Shown here: positions 1,197-58,465 of the stretch, piece by piece | How positions within the stretch are numbered: position 1 is the first letter of the stretch | How the letters are laid out: each line of letters opens with the position of its first letter | NCBI GenBank assembly: GCA_964650645.1 | Contig: CAZYUH010000001.1 | Span: 475,099-539,098, forward strand | Source: an uncultured Candidatus Saccharibacteria bacterium | Lineage (GTDB): Bacteria > Patescibacteriota > Minisyncoccia > Phycocordibacterales > SBAW01 | DNA: 64,000 nucleotides | Direction: 5' to 3' | Program-made: the position numbers and the translations under genes | The notes under the pieces: generated by a model | What the model saw: the letters and a program-made list of their open reading frames with translations, nothing else | Databases searched by the model: none | What the model was told of the DNA's origin: nothing

Positions 1197-2432
1197 TTAG
1201 GTGAGCCACCCGCGCTCGCGGGACAGCGCCGCGTCCCACGCGGCGCGCGCGAGCCACATCGGCGCCAAAAGCCCGAAGAGGAAGAAATAGGAGACAAGGT
1301 GCTTGGCGTCGAGCCGGCTGCCGGCGATGCGCTGGCCCAGAAGGACCGCGACGAGGGTCATGAGGAACATGACGACCATCAGGAAGAGCATCATGCCCGT
1401 GTTGAGGTAGAACCAGTCGAACTGGAAGTGCGGCAGGCGGGGCGGTATGCCGGTCAGGTAGTAGTTCGCCGCCTTTTCAATGCCGGCGCTCGCGAGATGG
1501 TAGGCGAGGTAGCACGCGCTGTAGAGGCCCATCGCGAAGGCCGCGAGCCCGAAGGGCAATACCAGCATCCCGAAGTTCCCGTACTTGCGGTTGAAGTACA
1601 TGTGCGCGTAGTCGCGCGAGTTCTCGAGGAATCCGCGCGACCAGCGGGTGCGCTGGCGTATGAGCGCCGGCACCGTGGTGGGCACGTTGGTGTGCACGAG
1701 CGCCGTGTGCACGTTCACCAGCTTGAGCCCGTGCATGTGCATGCGGAAGGCCATCTCCATGTCTTCCGTATGGTGCGCGCGGCGGAAGGGACCCACGATA
1801 TCAAAGAGCGCGCGCCGGTAGATGGAGAACGGCCCGGGCAGGACCGATATCGCGTTCATGTTGTCGAACATCTTCTTGTAGAAGATGCCGAAGGTGTACT
1901 CGACCGCCTGCATGAGCTCGAGCATGGTGCGCGGCTGGTTGACCTTCATGGAAGGGGCGGCGGCGTACGCCTCCGGGTCGGCCTCGAACGCCTTTACCAT
2001 CTCTATGAGGGCGTCCTTCTCCACGAACGAGTCGGCGTCGAGGCAGCCCACGAGCTCCGAGTCGGTGTGCGCGAGCCCGAAGTTGAGCGCCGAGAACTTG
2101 CTGCCCTCGTTCTCCTTCCGGTAGAGCTTCACCTGCGGGTTGCTCGCGAACTCCTGCGCGGCCTCCCACGTGTTGTCGGTCGAGCCGTCGTCGATGATGA
2201 CGATGGAAAGCTTGTCCTTGGGGTAGTCAAGCTGGAGGAGTGAATGGATGGTGGGGGCGAGCGTCGCGCCCTTGTTCCAGCAGGGCACCAATACGGCCAC
2301 GGTGGGGTAGCGCTTGGGGAGGCCGGGGGACTTCACCTCGGGGCGCTTCTCGAAGAAGGAAATGAGCAGAAACACCTCGAAGAAGAGGGCGAAAAAGAGG
2401 GCTGCATATACGCCGAGGGCGCCCGCATCCAT
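1197..2432 (-). CDS. family-2 glycosyltransferase (processive, NodC/cellulose-synthase-like) with C-terminal TM helices
   Basis: DxD-type motif LDADS, QRTRWSRG (QxxRW) motif, multiple C-terminal hydrophobic segments; start placed at ATG 2432 (MDAGALGVYAALFF); track start 2462 is a GTG. Confidence 0.8.
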   Translation of the reverse strand: MDAGALGVYAALFFALFFEVFLLISFFEKRPEVKSPGLPKRYPTVAVLVPCWNKGATLAPTIHSLLQLDYPKDKLSIVIIDDGSTDNTWEAAQEFASNPQVKLYRKENEGSKFSALNFGLAHTDSELVGCLDADSFVEKDALIEMVKAFEADPEAYAAAPSMKVNQPRTMLELMQAVEYTFGIFYKKMFDNMNAISVLPGPFSIYRRALFDIVGPFRRAHHTEDMEMAFRMHMHGLKLVNVHTALVHTNVPTTVPALIRQRTRWSRGFLENSRDYAHMYFNRKYGNFGMLVLPFGLAAFAMGLYSACYLAYHLASAGIEKAANYYLTGIPPRLPHFQFDWFYLNTGMMLFLMVVMFLMTLVAVLLGQRIAGSRLDAKHLVSYFFLFGLLAPMWLARAAWDAALSRERGWLT

Positions 2433-8654: not shown

Positions 8655-9620
8655 CTAGAACACCTGGTAGGTCGTAACCGCGGTGTTGTTGTAGTCGCTC
8701 GACTCCTGCACCTGGTTCATGGGGTCGACCTCGATGGTCGCCTGGGCCTGGCCGCCGTAGTAGCCGCCCTGCGCCGGCACGACGTCGTAGCCGAGCGTGT
8801 AGACTATCCTGTCGCCCGGGTAGAGCATCTGCTGGCCGCCCGAAGGATAGACGTAGAGGGGCTGGTAGGGAAGCACGGCGTTGAAGGTCCAGCCCGCGGG
8901 CGCCGCGTTGGTGCCGATGTTGGTGATGACGAACTGGAGGCTGATGCGCGAGCCCGCCTGCGCCTGCGTCGGAGCGGCGGTAATCTGCACCGCGAGGTCG
9001 GGCGCGCCGTAAAGATTCTGGGTGCGGCCCGACGGGACGTAAGTCGTCGCGGGCTTGGCGGGCGTCACCGGCTTTGCAGCGGGGGCGGCCGGCTTGGGCT
9101 CGGCGGGCGCGGCCGGGGCGGCTGCGGGCGTGGTGCTCGCGCTCACGGTCGTCTTCGCCGTCCCTTTTACCGCTATGGTGCCGTCGGAGAGGCGGGTCGC
9201 GGCGACGGTAAGCGTGGTCGACGCCTCCTTAACGCCCGGCGCGAGCACGGGGATTATCGGCATGGACGAGGTCGCGTTCACGTAATTGAACGGCGTGTCG
9301 CACTTCACGAGCTGGAAGGCGCCGGTAGGGACGGGCGCGGCGAACGCGAGGCCCGGGGAGCAGGCGTAGGAAACGGCGTACGAGTACTCGCCGTCCTTGC
9401 CCGCATGCTTCCATGAAAGAGGGAACGCCTTGTCGGATACCGACTGCGCGGGGGCGGACGCGGTCAGGGTCTCCTTGGTCTGGCCGATGGAGCCGAAGAA
9501 CGTGGGGAGGTAGAACGCGAGCTGGATAATGCCCCATGCGCCCAGCAATAAAATAGCTATCAGGCCGATGACGGCTATGACGCGCAGGAAGTTCTCCCGG
9601 AACGTAGGTGTGGGTGCCAT
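8655..9620 (-). CDS. membrane-anchored surface protein with Pro/Ala/Thr-rich linker and C-terminal CARDB-like domain
   Basis: Internal ATG 9620 (MAPTPTFRENFLRVIAVIGLIAILLLGAWG signal anchor); linker AAPAAPAEPKPAAPAAKPVTPAKP; C-terminal pattern DLAVQITAAP...ITNIGTNAAP...EVDPMNQVQESSDYNNTA resembles CARDB. Confidence 0.55.
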   Translation of the reverse strand: MAPTPTFRENFLRVIAVIGLIAILLLGAWGIIQLAFYLPTFFGSIGQTKETLTASAPAQSVSDKAFPLSWKHAGKDGEYSYAVSYACSPGLAFAAPVPTGAFQLVKCDTPFNYVNATSSMPIIPVLAPGVKEASTTLTVAATRLSDGTIAVKGTAKTTVSASTTPAAAPAAPAEPKPAAPAAKPVTPAKPATTYVPSGRTQNLYGAPDLAVQITAAPTQAQAGSRISLQFVITNIGTNAAPAGWTFNAVLPYQPLYVYPSGGQQMLYPGDRIVYTLGYDVVPAQGGYYGGQAQATIEVDPMNQVQESSDYNNTAVTTYQVF

Positions 9621-9695: not shown

Positions 9696-10292
9696 ATGCG
9701 CGCCCTCGCTTTCGCCGCCACCTTCATATGCTTCTTCTTCATGACCTACGCCTTTCTGGGGCTGGTCGACGCCCTGCCTAATCCGCCGGAGTCTGCTGAC
9801 ACCGCGTCGCGCGAGCCTGCCAGCGCGCCGGAGCCTGTCGCGCAGGATGCGCGCGAATTGCCGGTGCGCGTCGTGGTAAAGGACGCGGGCATAGACTCCA
9901 AGGTGCTCAACCCGGCCTCGACCGACCTCGATACGCTTAACGCCGCAGTGGACGAGGCGGCGATGCGCTGGCCCACCTCGGGCCTGCTTGGCCAGAACGG
10001 CACCGTGGCGCTCTTCGGCCACTCGTCGCATTTGCCGGTGGTCTACAACCAGGCGTACAAGACGTTCAACGGGATAGAGCACCTCAAGAAGGGCCAGATC
10101 GTGAGCGTCTATTCGGGCACGGCCGAATACCGCTACGCGGTTACGGGCGTGCGCGTCGCCAGCGCCGAGGAGGACGTCGTCGAGCTTCCGTCCGACGGGA
10201 AGCACCTCGTGCTCATCACCTGCGACAATTTCGGCAGCAAGTCCGACCGCTATGTCGTGACCGCGGATTTCCAGGGCGCGTACGCCCTTTAG
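9696..10292 (+). CDS. sortase-family transpeptidase
   Basis: N-terminal TM; catalytic-triad context ALFGHSS (His), LVLITCDNF (TLxTC Cys), downstream Arg (DRYVVTA); divergent from the CARDB gene. Confidence 0.7.
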   Translation: MRALAFAATFICFFFMTYAFLGLVDALPNPPESADTASREPASAPEPVAQDARELPVRVVVKDAGIDSKVLNPASTDLDTLNAAVDEAAMRWPTSGLLGQNGTVALFGHSSHLPVVYNQAYKTFNGIEHLKKGQIVSVYSGTAEYRYAVTGVRVASAEEDVVELPSDGKHLVLITCDNFGSKSDRYVVTADFQGAYAL

Positions 10293-10334: not shown

Positions 10335-10363
10335 TTGACAAAAGGGGTCTAAGGTGATATACT
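10335..10363 (+). promoter_or_regulatory. consensus sigma70 promoter TTGACA-17-TATACT
   Basis: TTGACA 10335-10340, TATACT 10358-10363; about 160 nt upstream of the 10527 ATG. Confidence 0.7.
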
Positions 10364-10526: not shown

Positions 10527-12305
10527 ATGGCCAAGCCAATCTACGTAAATGCGAAAGGTCAGCGCGTCGCTGAGGCTGATTCGGGCCAGTGGAGGGAAGT
10601 AAACGCTGCGGGCGAGCCGAAAGGCCCGTTCGCGGATTCTCCATTCAAGCATGGAGCCAATCCCCAGCCTGAATCATCGCCAGCTGCGCGAGCGGATGTG
10701 CCGGACGAAATCCGGCGCGTCGCTTCCGAGCTGGAATCGCTCAAAGCAAAGCTTAACGCCTTGCAGGAGTCGAAACCGGATCGCGGCCAGCTCAACCGGG
10801 CTGTCGAGGAGCTAGTAAGCCTCGCCAAGCAGGTGGGTGAACTGCGTGTCGCCTTTGGCGGCGCGGAACAGATCGAAGCGTTCGTTAAGAGCGTTGGCGA
10901 TCTGGCCGGGCAAATCCAAGAGCTGGACAAGCGCATCAACCAAGTCAGTGACAAGGTGGATGCCACTGCCGATACTCTCAATGAGGCCGGCAGAGGGGTA
11001 GTCGATCGCTTCAAGGCGGTTGAAGCCCGCATCAAGGAGCTCGAAAGCCGTCCGGCTGAAACCGTAGAACCTTCCAATCCTCACCCCCATACATCATCGC
11101 CCCGCGATGATGCGGGGCAAAAGAAGGAGGAGGCAATGCCTCAGACTGAGAATCGAACTGAGACGACGTCTAATTCCCAAGCTTCGCAACCGCCTCGCGG
11201 CGATGCGGGGCAAAAGGAGAAGTTCATGTCATCCTTCAGGTCTAATCCTATCGCGGTTTTCGGAGCTGCGGCGGTCGTTGCTTTCCTTGGCTGGTTGGTA
11301 TTCGGCTTCAGTCATGCGCCGCAGAAGGTAACGACCGCACTGGGCACCGTCGATAACGGCTCTGCCGTTGTTGCCGAGACCCCGGCCCAGCGCGACCGCC
11401 GCTTCGCGGAGATCGCGGGAGCGACCTTCGACCAGCGCATCCAGCCGATCGACAGGGACCTGGAGAAGCTCAAGTCAAAGACTGACGGCTTGACCAGCAA
11501 CCTTTCCGACCTGGGCACCCAGGTTGCCAAGGTTGAAAAGAGCGTCGCGTCGGGCATCGAGAAGGTGATGGCCCAGCTGGAGAAGGTGGTAAACGCCAAG
11601 ACGTCGTCCGATACGGACGAGGTCGAGGCCAAGCGCCTTGCCCAGATTAAGGCAGAATGTTTGCCTGATTCGGAAACGACGAAGGGCTTGGACCTGAAGA
11701 AGGACCTGCCCGAAGAAACGTTCCAGTCTGTCTTGCGCATCTGCCGCGCGGAGAAAGAGGAGAAGATGCGCCAGGCTCAGACGCCTGTCGGGTCCCTTCC
11801 TTCGCCTCAGGCGCGGACGCTTCCCGCGTCCGTGAACGCGGCGGACCTTCCCGAGGCTGCGGATGATTCGTCATTCCAGCCGCAGGGTGCCGATGCATCC
11901 GGGGATGCGGGGGACGGACAGTCCGCCGCTTCCTTGGGAGGCGACGACCTGACGGGGCCCTACGACCCCCGGACGGCCAAGGCAATGTCACCAGGCGTTG
12001 CGCACGTTGCGCAGGCGGGGTACATGGGCCCGGGCGTCGGCGGCCCCGGATTCGGACCTGTAGGTCCCGGGTTCGGGCCTGGTCCCCGCGGCGGCCGTAT
12101 CAGCGGTCCTCGGTGTCCTCGCGGAAGCGCCTTCAATCCGCGGTACGGGAAGTGCATCGGAACCCGATTGCATGATTTACCCGTATCTCCCCAGATGGGG
12201 CAAATACTCAGCACGTGCAGGGATATTGTCACGCGCGAAGTGTGGAAGAACGGACACCTCACCCAGCAGCAGAAGGGAATCGGCTGCCGGCGTCCGGCCT
12301 ACTAA
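10527..12305 (+). CDS. bitopic coiled-coil membrane protein (592 aa), internal duplicated PRxDAGQK motif, Gly/Pro- and Cys-containing C-terminus
   Basis: AGGAGGG RBS 5 nt before the ATG; heptad-like segments on both sides of the single TM (AVFGAAAVVAFLGWLVFGF); no homolog recognised. Confidence 0.6.
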   Translation: MAKPIYVNAKGQRVAEADSGQWREVNAAGEPKGPFADSPFKHGANPQPESSPAARADVPDEIRRVASELESLKAKLNALQESKPDRGQLNRAVEELVSLAKQVGELRVAFGGAEQIEAFVKSVGDLAGQIQELDKRINQVSDKVDATADTLNEAGRGVVDRFKAVEARIKELESRPAETVEPSNPHPHTSSPRDDAGQKKEEAMPQTENRTETTSNSQASQPPRGDAGQKEKFMSSFRSNPIAVFGAAAVVAFLGWLVFGFSHAPQKVTTALGTVDNGSAVVAETPAQRDRRFAEIAGATFDQRIQPIDRDLEKLKSKTDGLTSNLSDLGTQVAKVEKSVASGIEKVMAQLEKVVNAKTSSDTDEVEAKRLAQIKAECLPDSETTKGLDLKKDLPEETFQSVLRICRAEKEEKMRQAQTPVGSLPSPQARTLPASVNAADLPEAADDSSFQPQGADASGDAGDGQSAASLGGDDLTGPYDPRTAKAMSPGVAHVAQAGYMGPGVGGPGFGPVGPGFGPGPRGGRISGPRCPRGSAFNPRYGKCIGTRLHDLPVSPQMGQILSTCRDIVTREVWKNGHLTQQQKGIGCRRPAY

Positions 12306-12405: not shown

Positions 12406-12434
12406 TTGACAGTATTATCAAGGTCTTGTAAGTT
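12406..12434 (+). promoter_or_regulatory. sigma70-type promoter TTGACA-17-TAAGTT
   Basis: The track start 12406 is the TTG of the -35 hexamer; the real ATG is 12463, preceded by AGGAG. Confidence 0.65.
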
Positions 12435-12462: not shown

Positions 12463-13524
12463 ATGACTACCATTATAAAGAACATCATCGGTGCAGCGTT
12501 CGCGCTCATGGCGCTCGCCCTCCCGGTCGGTTCCGCTTTCGCGGCCGATCTTGACCTGGGTAGCTATGACACCGGCTGGTCGGATACGGGTTACTACGAT
12601 TCATACGATGCGTCGTACGACAGCTACTACGACACCGGCTGGACGGACACCGGCTACTACGATACGTACGATGCGTCGTACGATACCGGCTGGGTCGACA
12701 CCGGCTACTACGATACGTACGATGCGTCGTATGACACTGGCTGGGTCGACACCGGCTACTATGACACCTACTCTCCGTCGTACAGCACCGGCTACTCGAT
12801 GCCTTCCTTCGGCGGGATGTCCTTCGGCGGCTCCTCGTTCGGCGGCGGCTACGGCTACGGGATGCCTTCGTTCGGCACGCCCAACTACGCCTACCGCCAG
12901 GCCAACTACCCCCAGTTCCTGCCCCCGTCCAATACGGTAGTCGAGACCAACACCTGCACCGACAACTCCTGCAACTACGTCGACAACAGCATCGTCGACA
13001 ACAGCGTGGTGGACAACAGCGTCGTCGACAACAGCGTCACCATAGAGAACTCCTTCAACAACCAGGAGAAGAAGCGCGAGCGCCGCGACGACTACTGCTA
13101 CGACTACAACTACGGCAACCAGCAGGGCTACGGCCAGCAGGGCTACACCTACGGCTCGTACGCTTACCAGGGCAACTGCTACAGCTACGCCGCCCCGATA
13201 CCGCTGCCGCCGGTCAACACCACCCCGTACATCACGCTCTCGCAGACCCCGTACACCGGCCTCGACCTCGGGCCCTTCGGCGAGGTGCTCTACTGGACCT
13301 TCCTCGTCCTGTGGTGCCTGGGCGCCGCGTACCTGGTCGTCGTCAAGCGCGTCCAGAACAGGCTCGTCGGCTTCCTTAACGGCTTCCTGTTCGGCGGCGC
13401 ATCCGCCGCGGCCGCAGCGCCCGCTGCCCGCGCCGCTCACGCTCCGCAGGCTGCCGCAGCATCCGCTCCGCTCGTAGAAGAGGGCATCGACCCCTTCATC
13501 ATGAGCCAGATCAAGCGCTCCTAA
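12463..13524 (+). CDS. secreted Tyr/Asp/Gly/Thr-rich tandem-repeat protein with C-terminal TM segment
   Basis: Signal peptide MTTIIKNIIGAAFALMALALPVGSAFA; 4 x 17-aa repeats (YDTGWxDTGYYDTYDAS); VDNS pentapeptide repeats; GY/YG-rich tract; TPYTG + hydrophobic + KR near the C-terminus. Confidence 0.65.
   Translation: MTTIIKNIIGAAFALMALALPVGSAFAADLDLGSYDTGWSDTGYYDSYDASYDSYYDTGWTDTGYYDTYDASYDTGWVDTGYYDTYDASYDTGWVDTGYYDTYSPSYSTGYSMPSFGGMSFGGSSFGGGYGYGMPSFGTPNYAYRQANYPQFLPPSNTVVETNTCTDNSCNYVDNSIVDNSVVDNSVVDNSVTIENSFNNQEKKRERRDDYCYDYNYGNQQGYGQQGYTYGSYAYQGNCYSYAAPIPLPPVNTTPYITLSQTPYTGLDLGPFGEVLYWTFLVLWCLGAAYLVVVKRVQNRLVGFLNGFLFGGASAAAAAPAARAAHAPQAAAASAPLVEEGIDPFIMSQIKRS
12571..12780 (+). repeat. 4 x 51-nt tandem direct repeats, coding (inside CDS 12463..13524)
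   Basis: Units tacgatacgtacgatgcgtcgtacgataccggctgggtcgacaccggctac, nearly identical at 12655-12705 and 12706-12756. Confidence 0.8.
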
Positions 13525-13597: not shown

Positions 13598-13625
13598 CCC
13601 CGCCCACGGCGGGGGTTTCGCCTTA
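13598..13625 (+). terminator. intrinsic terminator (AAACCCCCGCC-cac-GGCGGGGGTTT)
   Basis: GC hairpin + T-tract after the CDS ending 13524. Confidence 0.7.
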
Positions 13626-13654
13626 TTGCTATCTTCATGCAAGTCGGCTATTAT
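13626..13654 (+). promoter_or_regulatory. sigma70-type promoter TTGCTA-17-TATTAT
   Basis: Upstream of the ATG 13685 (RBS GGAAAGAG). Confidence 0.55.
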
Positions 13655-13684: not shown

Positions 13685-14131
13685 ATGAAGAACTACGCGG
13701 TTTCAGCGGCATCGGCGCTCGCGCTCGCAATGGCGGTACTGGCCCCCTCGTCCGCCCTGGCCTATTGCAACGGGGCGGGGAGCACGTGCGTCCAGAGCAA
13801 CGCCTACTCGAAGCCGTACTACAACAGCCAGTACGTGAACCCGAACGCGTTCGCGGGGCAGTACGGAGGCTACGGCTACGGCGGGTACGCGCCGTACGGC
13901 GGCTATGGCGGGTTCGGCGGCTACTACGGGCAGGGCTACGGGTACGGCTACCAGCAGCCCCTGTACTTCCCGGTCTACAACACGACCTTCCCGGGCTACT
14001 ACGGGTTCGGCGGCTACTACGGCCAGAACTACGGGTACAACAATTACGCCTACAACTACGGATACGACTACGGCTATAACTACGGGTACGACTACGGCGG
14101 GTACGACTACGCCTACGATTACTGGTACTAG
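13685..14131 (+). CDS. small secreted Gly/Tyr-rich low-complexity protein (148 aa)
   Basis: Signal peptide MKNYAVSAASALALAMAVLAPSSALA; remainder about 60% G/Y with GYGYG, YGGY and NYGY repeats; own promoter and terminator. Confidence 0.6.
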   Translation: MKNYAVSAASALALAMAVLAPSSALAYCNGAGSTCVQSNAYSKPYYNSQYVNPNAFAGQYGGYGYGGYAPYGGYGGFGGYYGQGYGYGYQQPLYFPVYNTTFPGYYGFGGYYGQNYGYNNYAYNYGYDYGYNYGYDYGGYDYAYDYWY

Positions 14132-14185: not shown

Positions 14186-15394
14186 CTAGCTGCGGGTTTT
14201 TATCTCGTCCGCGAGCCTCGTGACGATGTCCTGTATGGGAAACGCGCCCAGCTTGCCCTCGCGGCCTTCAAGGGTGACGGTGCCGGAGGCGACCTCGGCA
14301 TCGCCTATGACCATGAGGTAGGGGACCTTCGCGGTTTTCGCGTTGCGTATCTTCTTGCCGAGGCTCTCGCTTGAATAGTCGGCTTCGGCGCGGATGCCGG
14401 CCTCGCGCAGGCGCTCGAGCGTGTCCTGCGCGAACGCGGCGTGCGCCTCGCCTATGGGGATGACGATGGCCTGCACCGGCGAGAGCCATGTGGGAAGGAT
14501 GCCGTCGAGGTGTTCGAGCAGCACCGCGATGCACCGCTCGAGGGAGCCGGTGATGGCCGAGTGGATCATGACGATGCGCTCCTTTTTTCCTTCTTCATTG
14601 ATGCACGCGAGGTCAAAGCGCTCGGGCTGGTTGAGGTCGAGCTGGATGGTGGCGACCTGCCACTCGCGGCCCGCGGCGTTCTTGGCCATGAAGTCGAGCT
14701 TGGGGCCGTAGAGCGCCGCCTCGCCCGGGCCCTCGAAGAAGTCCGCGCCGCGCTCCACCGCTATCTCGCGCAGGGCGCCTTCGGCGCTGTCCCACACCGC
14801 GGGCGTGCCTATGTATTTTTCCGGCGCCGACGGATCACGGAACGAGAGGCGCACGCGGAGCGTGAACCCGAACTGGCGGTAGAAGCGGTCCACGATGTCC
14901 CAGATCTTCAGGAACTCGTCCTTTATCTGCGACGTGCGGCAGAATACGTGGCTGTCGTCCTGCGTGATGGACAGCACGCGCGTGAGGCCGCCGAGCTCGC
15001 CGGACTGCTCGTCGCGGTAGACCATGGTGGTCTCGGCGTAGCGCTGGGGCATCTCGCGGTAGGAGTGCGGCCGGCGCGCGAATATCTGCGTGTGGTGCGG
15101 GCAGTTCATGGGCTTGAGCGCGTACTCCTTTCCCTCGCGCGAGGTGATGCGGAAGAGGTCGTCGGAGAACTTGTCCCAATGGCCGCTCGTCTCGTACAGG
15201 CTCTTTTTGGTGATGTGGGGGATGGTGACGCGGTCGTAGCCGTGCGCGTTGCGCAGTTCCCAGACGAAGCGGTCTATTTCCTCGCGCACCACGGTGCCCT
15301 TGGGGGTCCACAGCGGGAGCCCCGAGCCCACCAGGTCGCTGAACGTAAAAAGGTCGAGCTCGCGCCCGATGGTCCTGTGATCGCGTTCTTCCAT
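14186..15394 (-). CDS. thrS: threonine--tRNA ligase, catalytic + anticodon-binding domains only (402 aa; no TGS/editing domain)
   Basis: RDHRTIGRELDLF, class II motifs (FRITSREGKEYALKPMNCPHH, FCR...GELGGLTRV); C-terminal anticodon-binding fold. Confidence 0.9.
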   Translation of the reverse strand: MEERDHRTIGRELDLFTFSDLVGSGLPLWTPKGTVVREEIDRFVWELRNAHGYDRVTIPHITKKSLYETSGHWDKFSDDLFRITSREGKEYALKPMNCPHHTQIFARRPHSYREMPQRYAETTMVYRDEQSGELGGLTRVLSITQDDSHVFCRTSQIKDEFLKIWDIVDRFYRQFGFTLRVRLSFRDPSAPEKYIGTPAVWDSAEGALREIAVERGADFFEGPGEAALYGPKLDFMAKNAAGREWQVATIQLDLNQPERFDLACINEEGKKERIVMIHSAITGSLERCIAVLLEHLDGILPTWLSPVQAIVIPIGEAHAAFAQDTLERLREAGIRAEADYSSESLGKKIRNAKTAKVPYLMVIGDAEVASGTVTLEGREGKLGAFPIQDIVTRLADEIKTRS

Positions 15395-30255: not shown

Positions 30256-37107
<6,852 letters not shown>

Positions 37108-43485: not shown

Positions 43486-44262
43486 TTACTGCGTCTCCGG
43501 AGAGGAAGTGGGCTGGGGCGCGCCGGCCTCGACCGTGCCGCCCGCTGCCGAGCCGCCGGCCGGGGCGACGTCGGCGCCGCCCGGGACCGAGGAGAGGACC
43601 GCGTCAATGGCCGCGCGCATCGAGGAGTACGGCTGGGCGCCCGAGAGCGCTACCGCGTCCTCGCCGACCATGATGAGCGTGTAGGGCGTGCCCTGGCCGC
43701 CGGCCTTTATAGCCTCGTTGTAGCTGTCGGTAATCTTCTTGGTGAACTTGCCTGAAGAAAGGCAGGCGTTGAAGGTGTCGGTGTTAAGGCCGACCTGGCC
43801 CGCGATGACGGGGAGCTGTGCGAGGTCCAGCCCGTTATTGGACGGCGTTACCTCGAACAGCTTGCTGATGTAGGAGAAGTACGCCGTATCGCCGCCCTGG
43901 TCCGCCGCGCACTCGGCCGCCTCGGCTTCTTTAGGGGCCTTGGGGTGGATGGATGCGAGAGGGAAGGGGCGCAGGACCCATGCCACCTTGCCGGAAGGGC
44001 CGTAGTACTCCATTACCTGGTGCATGGTGGCATCGAAGAGCTTGCAGTGCTGGCACTCGAGGTCCATGTACTCGACGACCTTGACCGGCGCGTCCGGGTT
44101 GCCGAGGATGTGGTCCAGGGCAGGGTCGTAGGCGCGCACGTTCTGCGGGTTGTCGGTGTTGGACGGGGTGGCCGTGCCCGACTTGCCGGCCCAGAAGACC
44201 GCGCCCGCGATAACGAGCCCTGCGACGACGATGGTAATAGGCAGTGCGTAATTTCTGTTCAT
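43486..44262 (-). CDS. membrane-anchored DsbA-like thiol:disulfide oxidoreductase (CQHC)
   Basis: N-terminal TM, thioredoxin fold with a CxxC motif, Ala/Gly/Pro-rich C-terminal tail. Confidence 0.7.
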   Translation of the reverse strand: MNRNYALPITIVVAGLVIAGAVFWAGKSGTATPSNTDNPQNVRAYDPALDHILGNPDAPVKVVEYMDLECQHCKLFDATMHQVMEYYGPSGKVAWVLRPFPLASIHPKAPKEAEAAECAADQGGDTAYFSYISKLFEVTPSNNGLDLAQLPVIAGQVGLNTDTFNACLSSGKFTKKITDSYNEAIKAGGQGTPYTLIMVGEDAVALSGAQPYSSMRAAIDAVLSSVPGGADVAPAGGSAAGGTVEAGAPQPTSSPETQ

Positions 44263-54639: not shown

Positions 54640-55395
54640 TTACCGCAATAGGAACTCTATGAGCGTGGCGGTCTCCTGCGGGCTGAAGACCGGGTGGGCG
54701 CGCACGCCGGTCTTTACCACCACCGCGTCATTGCCGCCCTCTTCCAGGGCGTCGCCCACGTAGAGCATGTCTTTTGCGGGAATGCCCGAAATCTCGCTGA
54801 GGCGCTTGATGCCGTATGCCTTGTCTATGCCCTTGCGGGTGATGTCGACCGACGTCGAGCCGCCCGTGGCCACCGAGAACTCGGGGAGGCGCTTTTCAAC
54901 GGCCTCGCGCAGGACGCGGCGCTTCTCGCCCGAGGGGTCCCATTTGAGCTTCTCGTCGAGCGGCGCCTCCTGCCCCAGTCCCGAGAACACTATTTCCGCG
55001 CCGCGGTCCTCGATGCGCTCGCCCCATACGCGCTCCGGCTCCTGCGCGAGGCCGGCGTCTCCAAGCGCCTCCTTGAGCCCCGCGAGGATGCGCCCGCGCT
55101 CTTCTTCCGTAAAGGCGTAGTCGTAGTGCGGGTGCCACGAGCCTGTCTTGTGAACGAAGCACTGCGCCGCGTTGTCGGGAAAGAGGTAGAGGTTGCGCAG
55201 GGGCGCATCGTCGGAGAGCGCCGAGAGGAACTGCTTCTCGAACTGCGGGAAGCCGGCGCCGGACATGACGGCCACCGGCATCCTCGAAAGGAGGCGCGAT
55301 ACGAGCGCGCCCATTTCGGGGCTCAGCGGCTGCTTTGACTCGGCGAGCGTGCCGTCGAGGTCGAAGGCGACGAGTTTCGGGAGCGGCGTGGTCAT
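54640..55395 (-). CDS. HAD-superfamily hydrolase (subfamily IIB, Cof/phosphomannomutase-like)
   Basis: Internal ATG 55395 (MTTPLPKLVAFDLDGTLAESKQPL: DxDGT motif I); ...SGAGFP..., C-terminal GDALEEGGNDAVV (motif IV). ATGA overlap with the upstream GH130 gene. Confidence 0.72.
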   Translation of the reverse strand: MTTPLPKLVAFDLDGTLAESKQPLSPEMGALVSRLLSRMPVAVMSGAGFPQFEKQFLSALSDDAPLRNLYLFPDNAAQCFVHKTGSWHPHYDYAFTEEERGRILAGLKEALGDAGLAQEPERVWGERIEDRGAEIVFSGLGQEAPLDEKLKWDPSGEKRRVLREAVEKRLPEFSVATGGSTSVDITRKGIDKAYGIKRLSEISGIPAKDMLYVGDALEEGGNDAVVVKTGVRAHPVFSPQETATLIEFLLR

Positions 55396-57317
55396 GACAG
55401 GGTATCGGGCAGGAGTATCTTCAGGAGCTTCTTGAGCGACATCTTCGCGACGCCGATCACGGTGTCGGCACCGCCGTAGTATACAAGAAGCGTGTCGCCG
55501 CGCAGCACCGCCCCGCAGGAGAACACGACGTTGCGTATCTGGCCCACGCGCTCGTACTCCTCTATGGGCTCGAATATCGTGTCGACGCTGCGCGAGAGCA
55601 CGATGGCGGGGTTCTTGAGGTCCAGAAGCACCGCGCCCAGCCGGTAGGTGCTCGTCTTTGATACGCCGTGGTAGATGAGCAGCCAGCCCTTGGGGGTCTT
55701 TATAGGCGGCCCGGCGATGCCGACCTTCTTGGAGTCCCACATGCCGGCGCGCGGGCCCATGAGCTCGATGCAGCGCGTGAGCCTGCTCTTCTTGAAATCG
55801 AGCGTGTCGAGGAAGTCCGCGCAGATCATGGGGTCGATGCGGTGCATGAGCATGTACTGGCCGCCGACCTTCTCTTCAAGGAGGCACGTGTCCTTGTCCT
55901 GCACGTTGTCGGGCGTGACGAGCTGGGGCGCGCTCCACTTGTCGAAGCGCTTCGCGACGAAATCCTTCACTGAAATGCTCGAGAGCGCGGCGCGCCACGG
56001 GTCGGCGCCGTTGTAGGCGGTATAGGCGAGGTAGATGGTGTTGCCGATGCGGGTGAGCCGCGGGTCCTCGCAGCCCGAGCCCGAGCCGGGCGGCCCCTTC
56101 TTCATCTCGAACTCCTCGCGCGGCAGGTAGGCGGGCGTCGCCATGCGCTCCAGTATCTTCGTGCCGTTCTTGGTAGAGGCGTACCCGAGTACGGACGTGT
56201 TGTCGTCGCCGAGCGCCCGGTACAAAAGGTGCACGGTGCCGTCGATGTCTATCGCGGCCGCGTTGAAGACCGCCCGGTTCTCCCACGTATGCTCCGGCAC
56301 GGGGGAAAGGAGGGGGTTCTCCTTGGCCCTCTTGGCAAGCTCGACGCGGCGCGCGGGGATTATGGCCGAGAGGAGGTCGGGGAGGTTCACCGACGCGCGG
56401 GCGCATACGGTGTCGGCGCCTCCGTAGTAGATGTCCACGCGCCCGTTCTTTTCAATGAGCGCGCCGGTGGGGAAGACGATGTTGGGCACGATGCCGTAGC
56501 GCTCGTAGATCTCCTCGGGCACCATGATGGGGCCGCGCGTGGCGCCCGCTATCCGGTAAGGGTCGTTCAGGTCAAGGAGGAGCGCCTCGATGCCGAAGAC
56601 CCGCTCGCCGCCGCCGAAGTAGTTCTGTATGTAGGAATAGAACATGAGCCAGCCGTCCTTGGTCTTTATTGGCGCGGAGCCCACCTCGACGTGGTCGTGC
56701 TCGAAGCGCAGGGGGTTGATGACATGGTCGTCGAGGTTCGCGTGCCACTTCTCCCAGAAGGAGAGGTCCCACAGCTCCTCCATTTCGTCGCACTGGGCTA
56801 TGGCTATCTTGGCCGGCGGCTCGTCGGTGTGCGCGGTGAGGATGACGGTTATCTTGCCGTTGATACGCTCCGGGAAGAGCGCCATCGCCTTGGCGTTGAA
56901 CGGCGTGATGAGGTGGCGCTCCTCTATGGTCTCGAGGTCCTTTGAGATAGCGCATGCGACCTTGATGTTGCCCGGGCCGAACGGCATGCCGCCGAGCGCC
57001 GTGTAGAAGATATAGTACTTGCCCTCGAAGAACGTCGCGCGCGGGTCCTCGCAGCCGTACTTCTCCCAGGGCTCTTCCGGCACGATGAACTGCCGGCGGT
57101 TCTGGAAGTGGCGGCCGTCGAGCGTGAGCGCCTTGCCGATAGTCGAGACGCCGTCGGGCGCCATGAGCGCGTCGGGGCGCCCGAGCGCGCGGTACAGGAC
57201 GTGCGTGATTGCGCCCTTTTTTACGGGCGAGGGGTTGAAGGTGCCGTGCGCCTCCCATGGCTTGTCGCCGATGGGGGAGATGAGGGGGTTGTGGCCGCTG
57301 CGCTTGATAACGTACAT
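55392..57317 (-). CDS. tandem double GH130-family (DUF377) glycoside phosphorylase/hydrolase (two complete 5-bladed-propeller units in one 641-aa polypeptide)
   Basis: Each half carries GCEDPR(A/L) and YYGGADT signatures (YGCEDPRATFFEGKYYIFYTALG / VDIYYGGADTV; GSGCEDPRLTRIG / LLVYYGGADTV). Start at internal ATG 57317; the upstream part of the ORF is Arg-rich junk. Confidence 0.78.
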   Translation of the reverse strand: MYVIKRSGHNPLISPIGDKPWEAHGTFNPSPVKKGAITHVLYRALGRPDALMAPDGVSTIGKALTLDGRHFQNRRQFIVPEEPWEKYGCEDPRATFFEGKYYIFYTALGGMPFGPGNIKVACAISKDLETIEERHLITPFNAKAMALFPERINGKITVILTAHTDEPPAKIAIAQCDEMEELWDLSFWEKWHANLDDHVINPLRFEHDHVEVGSAPIKTKDGWLMFYSYIQNYFGGGERVFGIEALLLDLNDPYRIAGATRGPIMVPEEIYERYGIVPNIVFPTGALIEKNGRVDIYYGGADTVCARASVNLPDLLSAIIPARRVELAKRAKENPLLSPVPEHTWENRAVFNAAAIDIDGTVHLLYRALGDDNTSVLGYASTKNGTKILERMATPAYLPREEFEMKKGPPGSGSGCEDPRLTRIGNTIYLAYTAYNGADPWRAALSSISVKDFVAKRFDKWSAPQLVTPDNVQDKDTCLLEEKVGGQYMLMHRIDPMICADFLDTLDFKKSRLTRCIELMGPRAGMWDSKKVGIAGPPIKTPKGWLLIYHGVSKTSTYRLGAVLLDLKNPAIVLSRSVDTIFEPIEEYERVGQIRNVVFSCGAVLRGDTLLVYYGGADTVIGVAKMSLKKLLKILLPDTLS

Positions 57318-57331
57318 GCTCGTATTATATG

Positions 57332-58465
57332 TCAGGCTTTTACGGGCACGAGGTCCGCGCGCTGGCCGTGGGCCAGTTTCAGCAGGAAGTCGTCGAGATT
57401 GGCGCGCGCGGCGGCCACGTACTTGTCGCCGCCGCCGTAGTACACCAAGAGGTCCTCGCCGACGATGACCGCGCCCGAGACGTACACGACGCCGGGCTTC
57501 CAGTCGTTCTCGTACCACTCATCGGGCTCCAGCACGGGCTCCTTCGAGCGGTGCAGGATTTTCTTGGGGTTCTTGAGGTCAAGGAGCATCGCGCCCACCT
57601 TGTACTTGTGCGGCTCGCGCTCGTCTATGGCGTGGTAGAACAGGAGCCACCCGTCCTTGGTGCGAAGCGGCGGCGCGCCCGCGCCGCGCAGGCGGCTGTC
57701 CCACGCCTTGGGGCGCTGGGCGCGCTCGAAGCGGCTGCGTATGTAGGCGGAGTCGTTCGCGTCGCCCGGCTGTATGTAGGCGATCTGTATCTCGGGCTCC
57801 AGGTTGTGCAAGATGCCGTAGCGCCCGCGTATCTTCTCGGGGAAGAGCACCCAGTTCTTCTGCACCTCGCCGGGCGGCGAGAGGTACACGCCGCGCTCCC
57901 AATTGAAAAATCCCTGCTCGAGCTCGGTGAGCGGCAGGAAGGAGAGCATCATGCGCACGTTGCTCCATCCCTCGAACGAAGTGAACGTCATGCAGACGTG
58001 CCCGTCGATGACGACGGCGCGCGGGTCTTCCGTGCCGCCCCAGCCGCCGCCCGAGCCGTGCGTCGTGGTGTCGTAGGAGAGCGGCGCGTACTTCCTCGCA
58101 CCGCGCCGCGCGCGCTCCAGGCTCGCGGGCGACGGGTCGTAGGCGGGGGAGCTTGAGCGCGTAAAATGCACGCCGTCGTCGCTGTGCGCGTAGCCGATGC
58201 GCGATACGCCGTCCTGCCCTATGGCGCGGTACAGGAGGTGCACCTTGCCGCCGTGCACGAACGCCGCCGGGTTGAACACCGCCTCGGACTCCCACCAGTT
58301 CGCGGGATCGGGCGAAAGAACGGGGTTGTTTTCCGCGCGCTCGAGCCTGAGGCTGGGCTTGTAGGCGGCGTAGAGCCTGCCTAGGATATAGAAAACGGCC
58401 AACAGGCACGCAAAAAGAAGGGCGACGACGAGGAATGGGAGATACCAGGCGCTAAGCGCGTCCAT
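57332..58465 (-). CDS. GH130-family (DUF377) glycoside phosphorylase/hydrolase with N-terminal membrane anchor
   Basis: TM LPFLVVALLFACLLAVFYILG; GGTEDPRAVVIDG and LLVYYGGGDKYV signatures. Confidence 0.78.
   Translation of the reverse strand: MDALSAWYLPFLVVALLFACLLAVFYILGRLYAAYKPSLRLERAENNPVLSPDPANWWESEAVFNPAAFVHGGKVHLLYRAIGQDGVSRIGYAHSDDGVHFTRSSSPAYDPSPASLERARRGARKYAPLSYDTTTHGSGGGWGGTEDPRAVVIDGHVCMTFTSFEGWSNVRMMLSFLPLTELEQGFFNWERGVYLSPPGEVQKNWVLFPEKIRGRYGILHNLEPEIQIAYIQPGDANDSAYIRSRFERAQRPKAWDSRLRGAGAPPLRTKDGWLLFYHAIDEREPHKYKVGAMLLDLKNPKKILHRSKEPVLEPDEWYENDWKPGVVYVSGAVIVGEDLLVYYGGGDKYVAAARANLDDFLLKLAHGQRADLVPVKA

What the first reader, a model, noticed from the sequence alone, without database searches (positions are those of the whole stretch)
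12571..13330. Coding 51-nt tandem repeats (4 x YDTGWxDTGYYDTYDAS), VDNS pentapeptide repeats and a TPYTG-TM-KR sorting-like signal in one secreted protein
Near-identical 51-nt units (two copies identical but for 2 nt) indicate recent expansion or contraction by slipped-strand or recombination, so this locus could be phase- or size-variable. Downstream are 15-nt units (gtcgacaacagc...) encoding (I/V)VDNS x4, and a GY-rich tract (YGQQGYTYGSYAYQG). The C-terminal TPYTG followed by a 20-residue hydrophobic segment and KR is compatible with sortase processing (LPxTG-like) but is followed by an unusually long about 50-aa tail.
Basis: seen in the sequence. Interest (0 to 1): 0.5.

Follow-up and report, generated by a model that had tools for sequence, protein, structure and literature searches.

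The report
CPR surface protein with PYTG anchor
This gene encodes a secreted, mostly disordered, tyrosine/aspartate-rich repeat protein of a tiny Parcubacteria-type (CPR) bacterium; it ends in a conserved xPYTG, membrane-helix and tail module that sits beside a sortase gene in related genomes, so it is probably that enzyme's cargo and not an on/off switch.

Summary
Window 12463..13524 (+) encodes a 353-aa protein with these parts:
- a signal peptide;
- four in-frame 51-nt units (YDTGWxDTGYYDTYDAS);
- four 15-nt xVDNS units;
- a G/Y-rich tract;
- TPYTG, then a 19-residue hydrophobic helix, then KR, then a 57-aa tail.

The protein has no Pfam or NCBIfam match, and I found no paper on the motif. 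It still belongs to a large family in Adlerbacteria/Kaiserbacteria-type Patescibacteria: 864 cluster representatives.

PYTG is invariant in the family, and the preceding residue is V/A/T/I/L/M. The module is always C-terminal. The tail is not junk, because it ends in a conserved (G)IDPFIxSQIxR peptide. The ectodomain is predicted to be disordered. Its repeats differ in unit and copy number between species, always in multiples of 3 nt.

The gene lies in one syntenic block, with a sortase whose catalytic triad is intact 2 kb upstream.

Best reading: a surface protein whose xPYTG module is a variant, extended sortase sorting signal. This is inferred, not shown. The main rival is an uncleaved type I membrane protein with a cytoplasmic docking tail.

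Phase variation is excluded because the units are in frame. Size variation is seen between species. It was not seen in the one sister population that was sampled four times.

The parts
12463..13524 (+). Whole gene: 353-aa secreted repeat protein with a C-terminal xPYTG-TM-tail module
   Evidence: ORF and translation. GC3 is 0.87. Full-length homologues start with the same MNTI(T/I)KN signal peptide.
12463..12543 (+). Sec-type signal peptide MTTIIKNIIGAAFALMALALPVGSAFA, with predicted cleavage AFA|AD
   Evidence: Read from the sequence. AlphaFold2 models a helix at residues 3-18. Conserved among homologues. The cleavage site is inferred by rule, not by a predictor.
12565..12780 (+). Four 51-nt (17-aa) units YDTGWxDTGYYDTYDAS. 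The first is set off by a 12-nt YDSY spacer. The region has no basic residue and is 23% D and 23% Y.
   Evidence: TRF. Unit-by-unit comparison. Pattern of concerted evolution.
12781..12975 (+). G/S/F/Y-rich low-complexity stretch (MPSFGG repeats), then the conserved Cys motif TNTCTDNSCN
   Evidence: Translation. The consensus NTNTCTxxNSCN is conserved in 46 homologues.
12976..13035 (+). Four 15-nt units encoding (Y/I/V)VDNS
   Evidence: TRF 15-nt period, 4.1 copies. Units listed. Copy number is 2 to about 5 in relatives. No Pfam pentapeptide-repeat hit.
13084..13194 (+). Y/G/Q-rich tract (approximate bounds) with two Cys (DDYCYDYNYGNQQGYGQQGYTYGSYAYQGNCYSY)
   Evidence: Translation. Modelled as disordered, pLDDT below 50.
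13225..13275 (+). Conserved extracytoplasmic juxtamembrane motif PYITLSQTPYTGLDLGP. The candidate sortase site TPYT|G is at 13246-13260.
   Evidence: P255, Y256, L259, P263, Y264, T265, G266, L269 and G273 are invariant in 46 homologues. PYTG is present in 120 of 120 complete C-termini.
13288..13350 (+). Transmembrane helix LYWTFLVLWCLGAAYLVVV followed by KR
   Evidence: AlphaFold2 helix 270-310, pLDDT 82-94. Y277, W278, F280, W284, A289, Y290 and K295 are invariant.
13351..13482 (+). Predicted cytoplasmic tail: amphipathic LVGFLNGFLFG, then a variable A/H/P-rich linker
   Evidence: Alignments. The linker varies in length and composition. It is absent from some paralogues.
13483..13521 (+). 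Conserved extreme C-terminal peptide GIDPFIMSQIKRS (family consensus (G)IDPFIxSQIxR)
   Evidence: D343, F345 and Q349 are invariant. Short helix 344-350, pLDDT about 71. In the fetched loci the motif occurs only on PYTG proteins.
9696..10292 (+). Sortase gene (198 aa) with an N-terminal membrane anchor and the motifs GHSSH, LITC and DRYVV
   Evidence: Pfam PF04203, E 1.2e-18. Below every class cut-off in NCBIfam. Best PDB match is 2kw8, E 1e-8. His, Cys and Arg are invariant in 120 orthologues.
13600..13631 (+). Terminator-like G+C hairpin with a T-rich tail after the gene
   Evidence: The scan reports a stem at 13608-13622 followed by TTATTGCTAT. A longer stem AAACCCCCGCC/GGCGGGGGTTT is visible in the sequence.

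Best explanation
**What is shown.**
- The gene encodes a Sec-exported type I protein.
- Its 235-residue ectodomain is acidic, rich in Tyr/Gly/Ser/Asn, built largely of in-frame tandem repeats, and predicted to be disordered.
- It ends in a C-terminal module conserved across one Patescibacteria clade (genomes labelled Adlerbacteria, Kaiserbacteria, Nomurabacteria and Paceibacterota).
- The module reads PY(V/I)(T/S)LSxxPYTGL(D/E)LG, then a transmembrane helix with invariant aromatic residues, then K(R/K). In most members a cytoplasmic tail follows and ends in (G)IDPFIxSQIxR.
- The ectodomain is the fast-evolving part. Repeat unit, copy number and even domain type are swapped between species, while the module stays.

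**What is inferred.**
- The xPYTG, helix and KR core works as a cell-wall sorting signal.
- After export, the helix holds the protein in the membrane.
- The membrane-anchored sortase encoded 2 kb upstream cleaves between T265 and G266.
- The sortase then joins the disordered ectodomain to the wall or to another envelope acceptor.
- The 88-residue C-peptide stays in the membrane.
- The conserved helix and tail probably serve recognition, positioning or a role after cleavage.

The tandem repeats change length by unequal recombination or slippage over evolutionary time. This tunes the length and composition of the surface layer. It does not switch expression.
For: **Architecture and topology.**
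- Signal peptide, ectodomain, helix and KR are read from the sequence.
- AlphaFold2 with 46 homologues gives pLDDT below 50 for the ectodomain, a helix at 270-310 (pLDDT 82-94) and a short helix at 344-350.

**Family.**
- A word-indexed profile search found 257 or more hits.
- An exhaustive profile search found 864 representatives at E<=1e-3 and 123 at E<=1e-30. In the 150 best that are listed, the module is at the C-terminus in all but two, whose match runs on in a second stretch.

**Motif.**
- PYTG occurs in 120 of 120 complete C-termini, preceded by V in 96, A in 14, T in 6 and L in 1. I and M also occur at this position in the fetched loci.
- P, T and G sit where LPXTG has them. The helix starts 9 residues after G, and K/R follow it.

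**Portability.**
- The same module ends proteins with Ig-like or Cys-rich repeat ectodomains.
- 16 of 83 sequences scanned (the window and the loci held then) have a second paralogue. These often lack the tail but keep the core.

**Sortase.**
- PF04203, E 1e-18.
- Catalytic His/Cys/Arg are invariant in 120 orthologues.
- A sortase is present in all 52 loci with more than 4.6 kb of upstream DNA, and in 11 loci with less.
- In five loci it lies 72-169 nt downstream of the target instead.
- No other LPXTG-like ORF exists in the window or in the 82 loci held then.

**Precedent.** A non-Leu residue at the first motif position is known from C. difficile SrtB, which cleaves (S/P)PXT|G (PMC4155245).

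**Repeats.**
Against: - No experiment or proteomic datum shows cleavage.
- The canonical anchor models (Pfam Gram_pos_anchor, NCBIfam LPXTG models) do not match, even at E 0.1.
- Conservation extends far beyond five residues: 16 juxtamembrane positions, invariant aromatic residues in the helix, and a terminal cytoplasmic peptide. Distant members carry cytoplasmic parts of roughly 100 to 290 aa after the helix (L076/L077, L075). A throw-away sorting peptide would not look like this.
- The neighbourhood argument is weak. The whole block pheST-gyrB-CARDB-sortase-...-target-thrS-dnaE-rnhB-nusB-rnc is syntenic in this clade. Adjacency to the sortase is therefore no better conserved than adjacency to thrS. 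The five rearranged loci look like one subclade.
- Sortase and target appear to have separate promoters and terminators.
- Whole genomes could not be scanned for other substrates.
Confidence: 0.55

Rival explanations
1. This is an uncleaved type I membrane protein. The PY..LS..PYTGLDLG stretch is a structural or interaction motif at the membrane surface. The conserved helix pairs with another membrane protein. The cytoplasmic tail docks, through its terminal IDPFIxSQIxR peptide, onto a cytoplasmic partner. The protein would then link the cell interior to a disordered surface brush. The sortase next door would be a syntenic bystander with other substrates.
For: - Transmembrane residues (Y277, W278, F280, W284, A289, Y290) and the terminal peptide (D343, F345, Q349) are invariant.
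- The tail has the layout of a disordered linker plus a short conserved helix.
- Distant members have long cytoplasmic parts after the same core: about 290 aa in L075 and about 100 aa in L076/L077.
- Tyr at the X position is invariant, whereas X is free in LPXTG.
- There is no hit to LPXTG-anchor models.
- The whole region is syntenic, so linkage to the sortase carries little weight.
Against: - Many paralogues keep the core but have lost the tail, so the tail is dispensable for whatever the core does.
- What is invariant in all members is exactly P-x-T-G, a helix and a basic residue, at the geometry of a sorting signal.
- A sortase conserved with an intact triad needs a substrate, and none other is visible in 64 kb plus 82 loci.
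Confidence: 0.33
2. This is a contingency locus. The near-identical 51-nt and 15-nt repeats make the gene phase-variable or rapidly size-variable within a population.
For: - Internal units are 92-94% identical and share a 35-nt exact run.
- Units have been homogenised or duplicated separately in each lineage.
- Copy number and unit type differ between species.
- Contig L083 switches between two allele types inside the repeats.
Against: - All periods in 86 family genes are multiples of 3, so no frameshift switching is possible.
- The units are imperfect and differ mostly at synonymous sites. This indicates age and purifying selection on the peptide.
- Four independent assemblies of one sister population carry the same four units, with 0-1 nt differences among the three clean ones.
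- L083 has 4.7x coverage and may be a chimeric assembly.
Confidence: 0.08
3. This is a pilin-like subunit. The sortase would polymerise the protein head to tail by joining T265 to a lysine of the next subunit, as class C sortases do.
For: - The sortase is next to its single candidate substrate.
- The only ectodomain lysines of this protein sit in one conserved basic cluster, NQEKKRERR. Close relatives share it.
Against: - Many family members (for example P0078, P0117, P0088, P0023, P0082) have no lysine in the mature ectodomain.
- No pilin fold or YPKN-type motif is present, and the ectodomain is predicted to be disordered.
- Each locus has one sortase, not a pilus cluster with a tip, a base and a housekeeping sortase.
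Confidence: 0.04

Closest known systems
LPXTG-type cell-wall sorting signal of Gram-positive surface proteins (sortase A substrates; Pfam PF00746, NCBIfam TIGR01167)
   Same: - N-terminal signal peptide.
- C-terminal P-x-T-G pentapeptide.
- A hydrophobic helix about 9 residues later, followed by basic residues.
- A sortase with the His/Cys/Arg triad encoded in the genome.
- A repeat-rich, low-complexity wall-spanning region.
   Different: - The first motif residue is V/A/T/I/L/M rather than L.
- The X position is invariably Tyr.
- 16 flanking residues and the helix itself are conserved.
- 57 further residues follow KR and end in a conserved peptide.
- The curated HMMs do not match.
- There are one or two copies per genome, always in one locus.
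Clostridioides difficile SrtB and its (S/P)PXTG substrates (PMC4155245)
   Same: - A single sortase per genome recognises xPXTG with a non-Leu first residue.
- Cleavage between T and G has been shown for that enzyme.
   Different: - C. difficile has seven or eight diverse substrates scattered in the genome, with short basic tails.
- Here there is one locus-bound family with a long conserved tail.
- Nothing has been shown biochemically here.
Dedicated sortase-single-target pairs (class GN 'marine' sortase TIGR03784 with its own target; class D sortase with LPxTATN proteins NF058671; 'processed acidic surface protein' with LPXTA). Cited from my own knowledge of the NCBIfam families.
   Same: - One sortase is genomically paired with one cognate substrate.
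- The substrate's extended motif is conserved beyond five residues.
- The ectodomain is acidic and low in complexity in the LPXTA case.
   Different: - The window sortase scores far below the cut-offs of these classes: 31 bits against 158 for the class GN model, and 30 against 140 for the LPxTATN class D model.
- The target matches none of the target models.
Membrane-retained C-peptide of streptococcal LPXTG adhesins, sensed by a two-component kinase in S. gordonii (as summarised in PMC11326707)
   Same: It is a precedent that the fragment left in the membrane after sortase cleavage can have a function. This could explain a conserved helix and tail.
   Different: - No kinase or other partner has been identified here.
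- The streptococcal C-peptides are short and lack a conserved terminal motif.
Ser-Asp (Sdr/Clf) and similar repeat stalks of Gram-positive adhesins (from my own knowledge)
   Same: - In-frame acidic tandem repeats.
- Copy number varies between strains or species by recombination or slippage.
- The repeats sit in a sortase-type surface protein.
   Different: - The units here are 17-aa Y/D/T/G/W units at the N-terminal end of a protein with no folded ligand-binding domain.
- There is no sequence similarity.

Membership tests
Sortase substrates with an LPXTG-type cell-wall sorting signal | N-terminal Sec signal peptide | tested here: met
   MTTIIKNIIGAAFALMALALPVGSAFA|AD. Conserved in homologues. 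Modelled as helix 3-18. No dedicated signal-peptide predictor was available.
Sortase substrates with an LPXTG-type cell-wall sorting signal | C-terminal LPXTG or a class-specific variant, detected by the curated models (PF00746, TIGR01167) | tested here: not met
   No Pfam or NCBIfam hit at E<=0.1. By eye, P, T and G are present and invariant, but the first residue is T here and V/A/T/I/L/M in the family.
Sortase substrates with an LPXTG-type cell-wall sorting signal | Hydrophobic membrane segment shortly after the motif, followed by basic residues | tested here: met
   A 9-residue spacer, a 19-residue hydrophobic stretch, then KR. AlphaFold2 helix 270-310, pLDDT 82-94.
Sortase substrates with an LPXTG-type cell-wall sorting signal | The protein ends within a few residues of the basic tail | tested here: not met
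   57 residues follow KR. In the family, 80-124 residues follow PYTG, with a conserved terminal peptide. Some paralogues do have short tails.
Sortase substrates with an LPXTG-type cell-wall sorting signal | A catalytically competent sortase in the same genome | tested here: met
   Window 9696-10292 matches PF04203 at E 1e-18. His/Cys/Arg are invariant in 120 orthologues. Present in 63 of 77 loci, and the 14 exceptions are cut short upstream.
Sortase substrates with an LPXTG-type cell-wall sorting signal | Cleavage between T and G, and covalent attachment to the wall | not testable with these tools
   This needs a peptide cleavage assay or mass spectrometry.
Phase-variable (contingency) repeat loci | Changes in repeat copy number shift the reading frame or promoter spacing | tested here: not met
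   The units are 51, 63 and 15 nt. No repeat with a period not divisible by 3 was found in 86 family genes.
Phase-variable (contingency) repeat loci | Length heterogeneity within a population | tested here: inconclusive
   The window's own population is not in the collections. A sister population shows identical copy number in four assemblies.
Pentapeptide-repeat proteins (Pfam PF00805) | Tandem A(D/N)LXX pentapeptides that match the family model and form a beta-helix | tested here: not met
   No Pfam hit. There are only four xVDNS units. The region is modelled with pLDDT below 50.
Named sortase classes A-F and GN (for the neighbouring enzyme) | Score above the class-specific NCBIfam cut-off | tested here: not met
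   Best scores are 34.9 against 39.35 (generic sortase family), 31 against 158 (GN), 29 against 165 (D), 24 against 160 (E) and 23.5 against 160 (C). It is a sortase by Pfam, but its class is unassigned.

The most novel reading that the evidence does not exclude
The xPYTG module is a two-part sorting device, not a simple anchor. The sortase cleaves at PYT|G. The conserved helix and the cytoplasmic tail, with its terminal IDPFIxSQIxR peptide, form a functional unit. That unit either steers export and anchoring to a defined cellular site through a cytoplasmic partner, or reports on envelope assembly after cleavage. If so, this would be a clade-wide, single-cargo sortase system that builds a disordered Tyr/Asp-rich surface coat in ultra-small episymbiotic bacteria. 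It would be the first defined sortase substrate class for CPR bacteria.
Probability: 0.2. Interest if true: 0.7.

Novelty: new variant of a known kind. Interest (0 to 1): 0.45.

Why it matters
CPR/Patescibacteria make up a large share of bacterial diversity. More than half of them encode a sortase (PMC6744442). In the literature I could search, no substrate or recognition motif has been described for them.

This locus offers a concrete and testable candidate: one conserved sortase and one conserved xPYTG module, found once or twice per genome, across hundreds of genomes. If it is confirmed, three things follow.
- It defines a new sortase specificity.
- It names a major surface component of these ultra-small cells: a disordered, acidic, Tyr-rich coat whose repeats evolve fast, as expected for a host-contact or phage-exposed surface.
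- It raises the question of why a sorting signal carries a conserved cytoplasmic peptide.

If the rival holds, the family is still a new clade-specific transmembrane linker.

For the original claim, the practical message is that the repeats reflect evolutionary length variation. They are not a phase switch.

Tried and rejected
- **Family libraries.** Pfam and NCBIfam scans of the protein gave no hit at E<=0.1. The pentapeptide-repeat and LPXTG-anchor assignments were therefore rejected.
- **Exact look-up.** The window protein is not in the assembly collection.
- **Metagenome scan for close relatives.** It returned only two distant loci, so within-population copy number for this organism could not be tested.
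- **L080.** This contig is 99% identical in the tail, but it has 1.4x coverage and the VDNS region is joined in inverted orientation. I treated it as an assembly artefact.
- **L081.** It has an in-frame stop at 3.6x coverage, which I treated as a sequencing error or a pseudogene.
- **Sortase-peptide fusion model.** I built a paired alignment of 42 sortase-linker-peptide fusions to see whether AlphaFold2 would dock PYTG into the active site.
- **Minus-strand ORF 12601..13440.** Rejected as a high-GC artefact: the plus frame has GC3 0.87, a signal peptide and hundreds of homologues.
- **Longer TTG start at 12406.** Rejected because homologues start at the MNTI/MTTI methionine.
- **Second membrane helix in LVGFLNGFLFGG.** Rejected because the equivalent stretch is too short or charged in most homologues.
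- **Conserved gene between sortase and target.** The intervening genes form only small, fast-evolving clusters.
- **Literature.** Searches for PYTG with sortase, and for CPR, Parcubacteria or Patescibacteria with sortase or LPXTG, found no description of the motif.
Full report
**Observation**

The finding lies inside a single plus-strand gene, window 12463..13524 (353 aa). It has a Shine-Dalgarno-like AGGAG 10-14 nt before the ATG and GC3 of 0.87. Tandem Repeats Finder reports three arrays:
- a 51-nt array at 12628-12793, 3.3 copies, score 234;
- a 63-nt array at 12564-12683, score 191, which is the first unit plus a 12-nt spacer;
- a 15-nt array at 12978-13038, 4.1 copies, score 101.

In codon register the four 17-aa units are YDTGW(S/T/V/V)DTGYYD(S/T)Y(DAS/SPS), at 12565, 12628, 12679 and 12730. 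The four pentapeptides are Y/I/V/V-VDNS at 12976-13035.

The closest pair of units differs at 3-4 nt, not 2, and shares a 35-nt exact run. The other pairs differ at 7-14 of 51 nt, mostly at synonymous sites.

TPYTG is residues 262-266. A 19-residue hydrophobic stretch (276-294), KR, and 57 more residues follow.

**What the protein is**

Neither Pfam nor NCBIfam recognises it, even at E 0.1. The C-terminal 117 residues found seven relatives. A profile built from them found 257 or more. An exhaustive profile search of 1.84 billion cluster representatives found 864 at E<=1e-3, 269 at E<=1e-10 and 123 at E<=1e-30. In the 150 best that are listed, the match sits at the C-terminus in all but two, whose match runs on in a second stretch.

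The names sources give these proteins are Adlerbacteria, Kaiserbacteria, Paceibacterota, Parcubacteria or Patescibacteria. So the window comes from a high-GC (63%) member of that CPR clade.

Full-length relatives share one plan:
- an MNTI(T/I)KN signal peptide;
- an acidic aromatic repeat region;
- a G/S/F-rich stretch;
- a conserved NTNTCTxxNSCN Cys motif with xDNS repeats;
- a Y/G/Q-rich stretch;
- the C-terminal module.

Positions invariant in 46 sequences are P255, Y256, L259, P263, Y264, T265, G266, L269, G273, Y277, W278, F280, W284, A289, Y290, K295, Q298, D343, F345 and Q349.

PYTG is present in all 120 complete C-termini. The preceding residue is V in 96, A in 14, T in 6 and L in 1. 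I and M also occur at that position in genome loci.

AlphaFold2 with this alignment gives pLDDT below 50 for nearly the whole ectodomain, a confident helix at 270-310 (pLDDT 82-94) and a short helix at 344-350. The protein is therefore a type I membrane or surface protein with a disordered ectodomain of 30 acidic and 6 basic residues, 38 Tyr and 4 Cys.

**The tail is part of the module**

The 'unusually long' tail has three pieces: an amphipathic stretch, a variable A/H/P/T or acidic linker, and a conserved terminal peptide (G)IDPFIxSQIxR. In the fetched loci that peptide occurs only on PYTG proteins.

The tail is nevertheless optional. 16 of 83 sequences scanned (the window and the loci held then) have a second PYTG paralogue, and many of these end shortly after the helix. 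Distant members have other cytoplasmic parts after the same core, about 290 aa in L075 and about 100 aa in L076/L077.

The universal core is TLSxxPYTGL(D/E)LG, then the helix, then a basic residue. The same core ends proteins whose ectodomains are Ig-like or Cys-rich repeats rather than Y/D repeats. It therefore behaves as a portable C-terminal cassette.

**Genomic context**

A scan of one genome for each of 185,579 species gave 77 loci. All lie in the same syntenic block: pheST, gyrB, a membrane-anchored CARDB-domain protein (minus strand), sortase, one to several fast-evolving genes, the PYTG gene or genes, thrS (minus), dnaE (minus), rnhB, nusB, rnc.
- The sortase is found in 63 of 77 loci. 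The 14 exceptions all have 4.5 kb or less of upstream DNA, so it is present in 52 of 52 loci with more.
- In five loci (L031, L050, L054, L060, L064) the sortase lies 72-169 nt downstream of the target instead. Their sequences suggest a single subclade.
- No other ORF with an xPx(T/S/A)(G/A/S/N) motif followed by a helix and a basic residue exists in the window or in the 82 loci held then.

The window sortase (9696-10292) matches PF04203 at E 1e-18 but falls below every class-specific NCBIfam cut-off. Its nearest solved relative is B. anthracis chain 2kw8 (E 1e-8). Its His, Cys (LITC) and Arg are invariant in 120 orthologues.

One caution applies. thrS and dnaE are as constantly adjacent as the sortase is. 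Neighbourhood conservation here is therefore largely clade-wide synteny, and it counts as only modest evidence for a functional link.

A sigma-70-like promoter (TTGACA-17-TATACT, 10335-10363) precedes the intervening coiled-coil gene, and a terminator hairpin follows the target. The genes are thus probably not one operon.

**Repeats and variability**

- 55 of 86 family genes have coding tandem repeats with periods of 24-192 nt. All periods are multiples of 3, and the units are rich in Y/D/T/S/G/P.
- A relative 87% identical overall (L082), and a sister population (L084-L086), carry GGWDTD(S/Y)Y(S/T)DYxxPSYDxY x4 in place of the window's unit.
- More distant genes (L004, L078) share the window's YDTGWxDTGYYD unit.
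- Among those three genes, internal units are 2-4 nt apart within a gene and at least 7 nt apart between genes. The first and last units resemble their counterparts in the other species. This is the signature of lineage-specific duplication or homogenisation of internal units.
- xVDNS copy number runs from 2 to about 5 in close relatives.

The repeats do expand and contract, but on an evolutionary scale. Frameshift-type phase variation is impossible. Four assemblies of one sister population have the same copy number, with 0-1 nt differences over 1071 nt among the three clean contigs (L081, a 3.6x contig, differs at 11 positions). L083 is a mosaic of two allele types that switches inside the repeats. 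At 4.7x coverage it cannot be told apart from a chimeric assembly.

**Mechanism**

Most likely (0.55), the core is an extended variant of a sortase sorting signal. The sequence of events would be export, retention by the helix, cleavage at PYT|G by the neighbouring membrane-anchored sortase, and attachment of the disordered ectodomain to the envelope.

There are precedents for parts of this. A non-Leu first residue is known from C. difficile SrtB, which cleaves (S/P)PXT|G (PMC4155245). A functional membrane-retained C-peptide is known from S. gordonii (as summarised in PMC11326707).

The main rival (0.33) is an uncleaved transmembrane linker whose tail docks a cytoplasmic partner. Four observations favour it: the invariant helix residues, the conserved terminal peptide, the long cytoplasmic parts in distant members, and the failure of the LPXTG-anchor models.

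A contingency locus (0.08) and a pilin-type polymer (0.04) are unlikely. For the polymer, many members lack any ectodomain lysine.

**Novelty**

I found no paper describing this motif or any CPR sortase substrate. Meheust et al. report a sortase family in more than half of CPR genomes without naming substrates (PMC6744442).

I rate this a new variant of a known kind. It is a sortase-signal-like cassette with a distinct consensus and a conserved cytoplasmic extension, on a clade-specific family of disordered repeat surface proteins.

Noticed in passing
window 30256-37107 (+): A single 2283-aa ORF carries RNA polymerase beta domains (Rpb2 domains, residues 19-1047) followed by beta-prime domains (Rpb1 domains, residues 1066-2168). 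This is an rpoB-rpoC fusion.
   Followed up: partly
window 13685-14131 (+): Directly downstream lies a 148-aa secreted protein that is 46% Gly+Tyr (YGYGGY and YNYGYDYGY runs), with its own T-rich promoter-like site. It is found only in the closest relatives (L082, L085, L003) and in a looser form in L009. It may be a second component of a Tyr-rich surface matrix.
   Followed up: partly
window 10527-12305 (+): A 592-aa protein lies between the sortase and the target. It has coiled-coil segments on both sides of one membrane helix and a Cys-containing C-terminus. It has only weak coiled-coil hits in Pfam and NCBIfam. A gene of variable length (170-650 aa), usually with one membrane helix, occupies this slot in most loci, but it evolves too fast to cluster.
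   Followed up: partly
window 8655-9620 (-): A membrane-anchored CARDB-domain protein is divergently transcribed from the sortase. It is conserved in that position in 58 of 77 loci. A TTGACA-17-TACAGT promoter-like site at 9656-9628 precedes it. The 516-aa ORF in the mechanical list overextends its start across the sortase gene.
   Followed up: partly
L084, L085, L087, L088 versus L083, L086 (sister population): Four of six contigs from one population have an insertion of about 685 nt after the sortase gene, carrying a 109-aa partial sortase copy. The other two lack it. This looks like a structural polymorphism or duplication next to the sortase.
   Followed up: no
L083 6363-6923 and L080 1-745: L083 encodes a mosaic of two allele types of the target gene, with the switch inside the repeat array. 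L080 joins the tail to an inverted copy of the VDNS region. Both have low coverage (4.7x and 1.4x). They may be assembly chimeras caused by the repeats rather than real recombinants.
   Followed up: partly
window 14186-15394 (-): The threonyl-tRNA synthetase is only 402 aa, consisting of the catalytic core plus the anticodon-binding domain. The N-terminal TGS and editing domains usual in bacteria are missing. The length is the same in relatives.
   Followed up: no
window 43486-44262 (-): A membrane-anchored DsbA/thioredoxin-like protein (PF13462, E 7e-24). It could form the disulfides expected for the four conserved ectodomain cysteines of the target. Meheust et al. link such oxidoreductases to sortase-dependent assembly in CPR (PMC6744442).
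   Followed up: no
window 55392-58465 (-) and 1197-2432 (-): Two adjacent GH130 (mannoside phosphorylase-like) genes and a family-2 glycosyltransferase with chitin-synthase-like hits. These are envelope or glycan genes and were not examined further.
   Followed up: no
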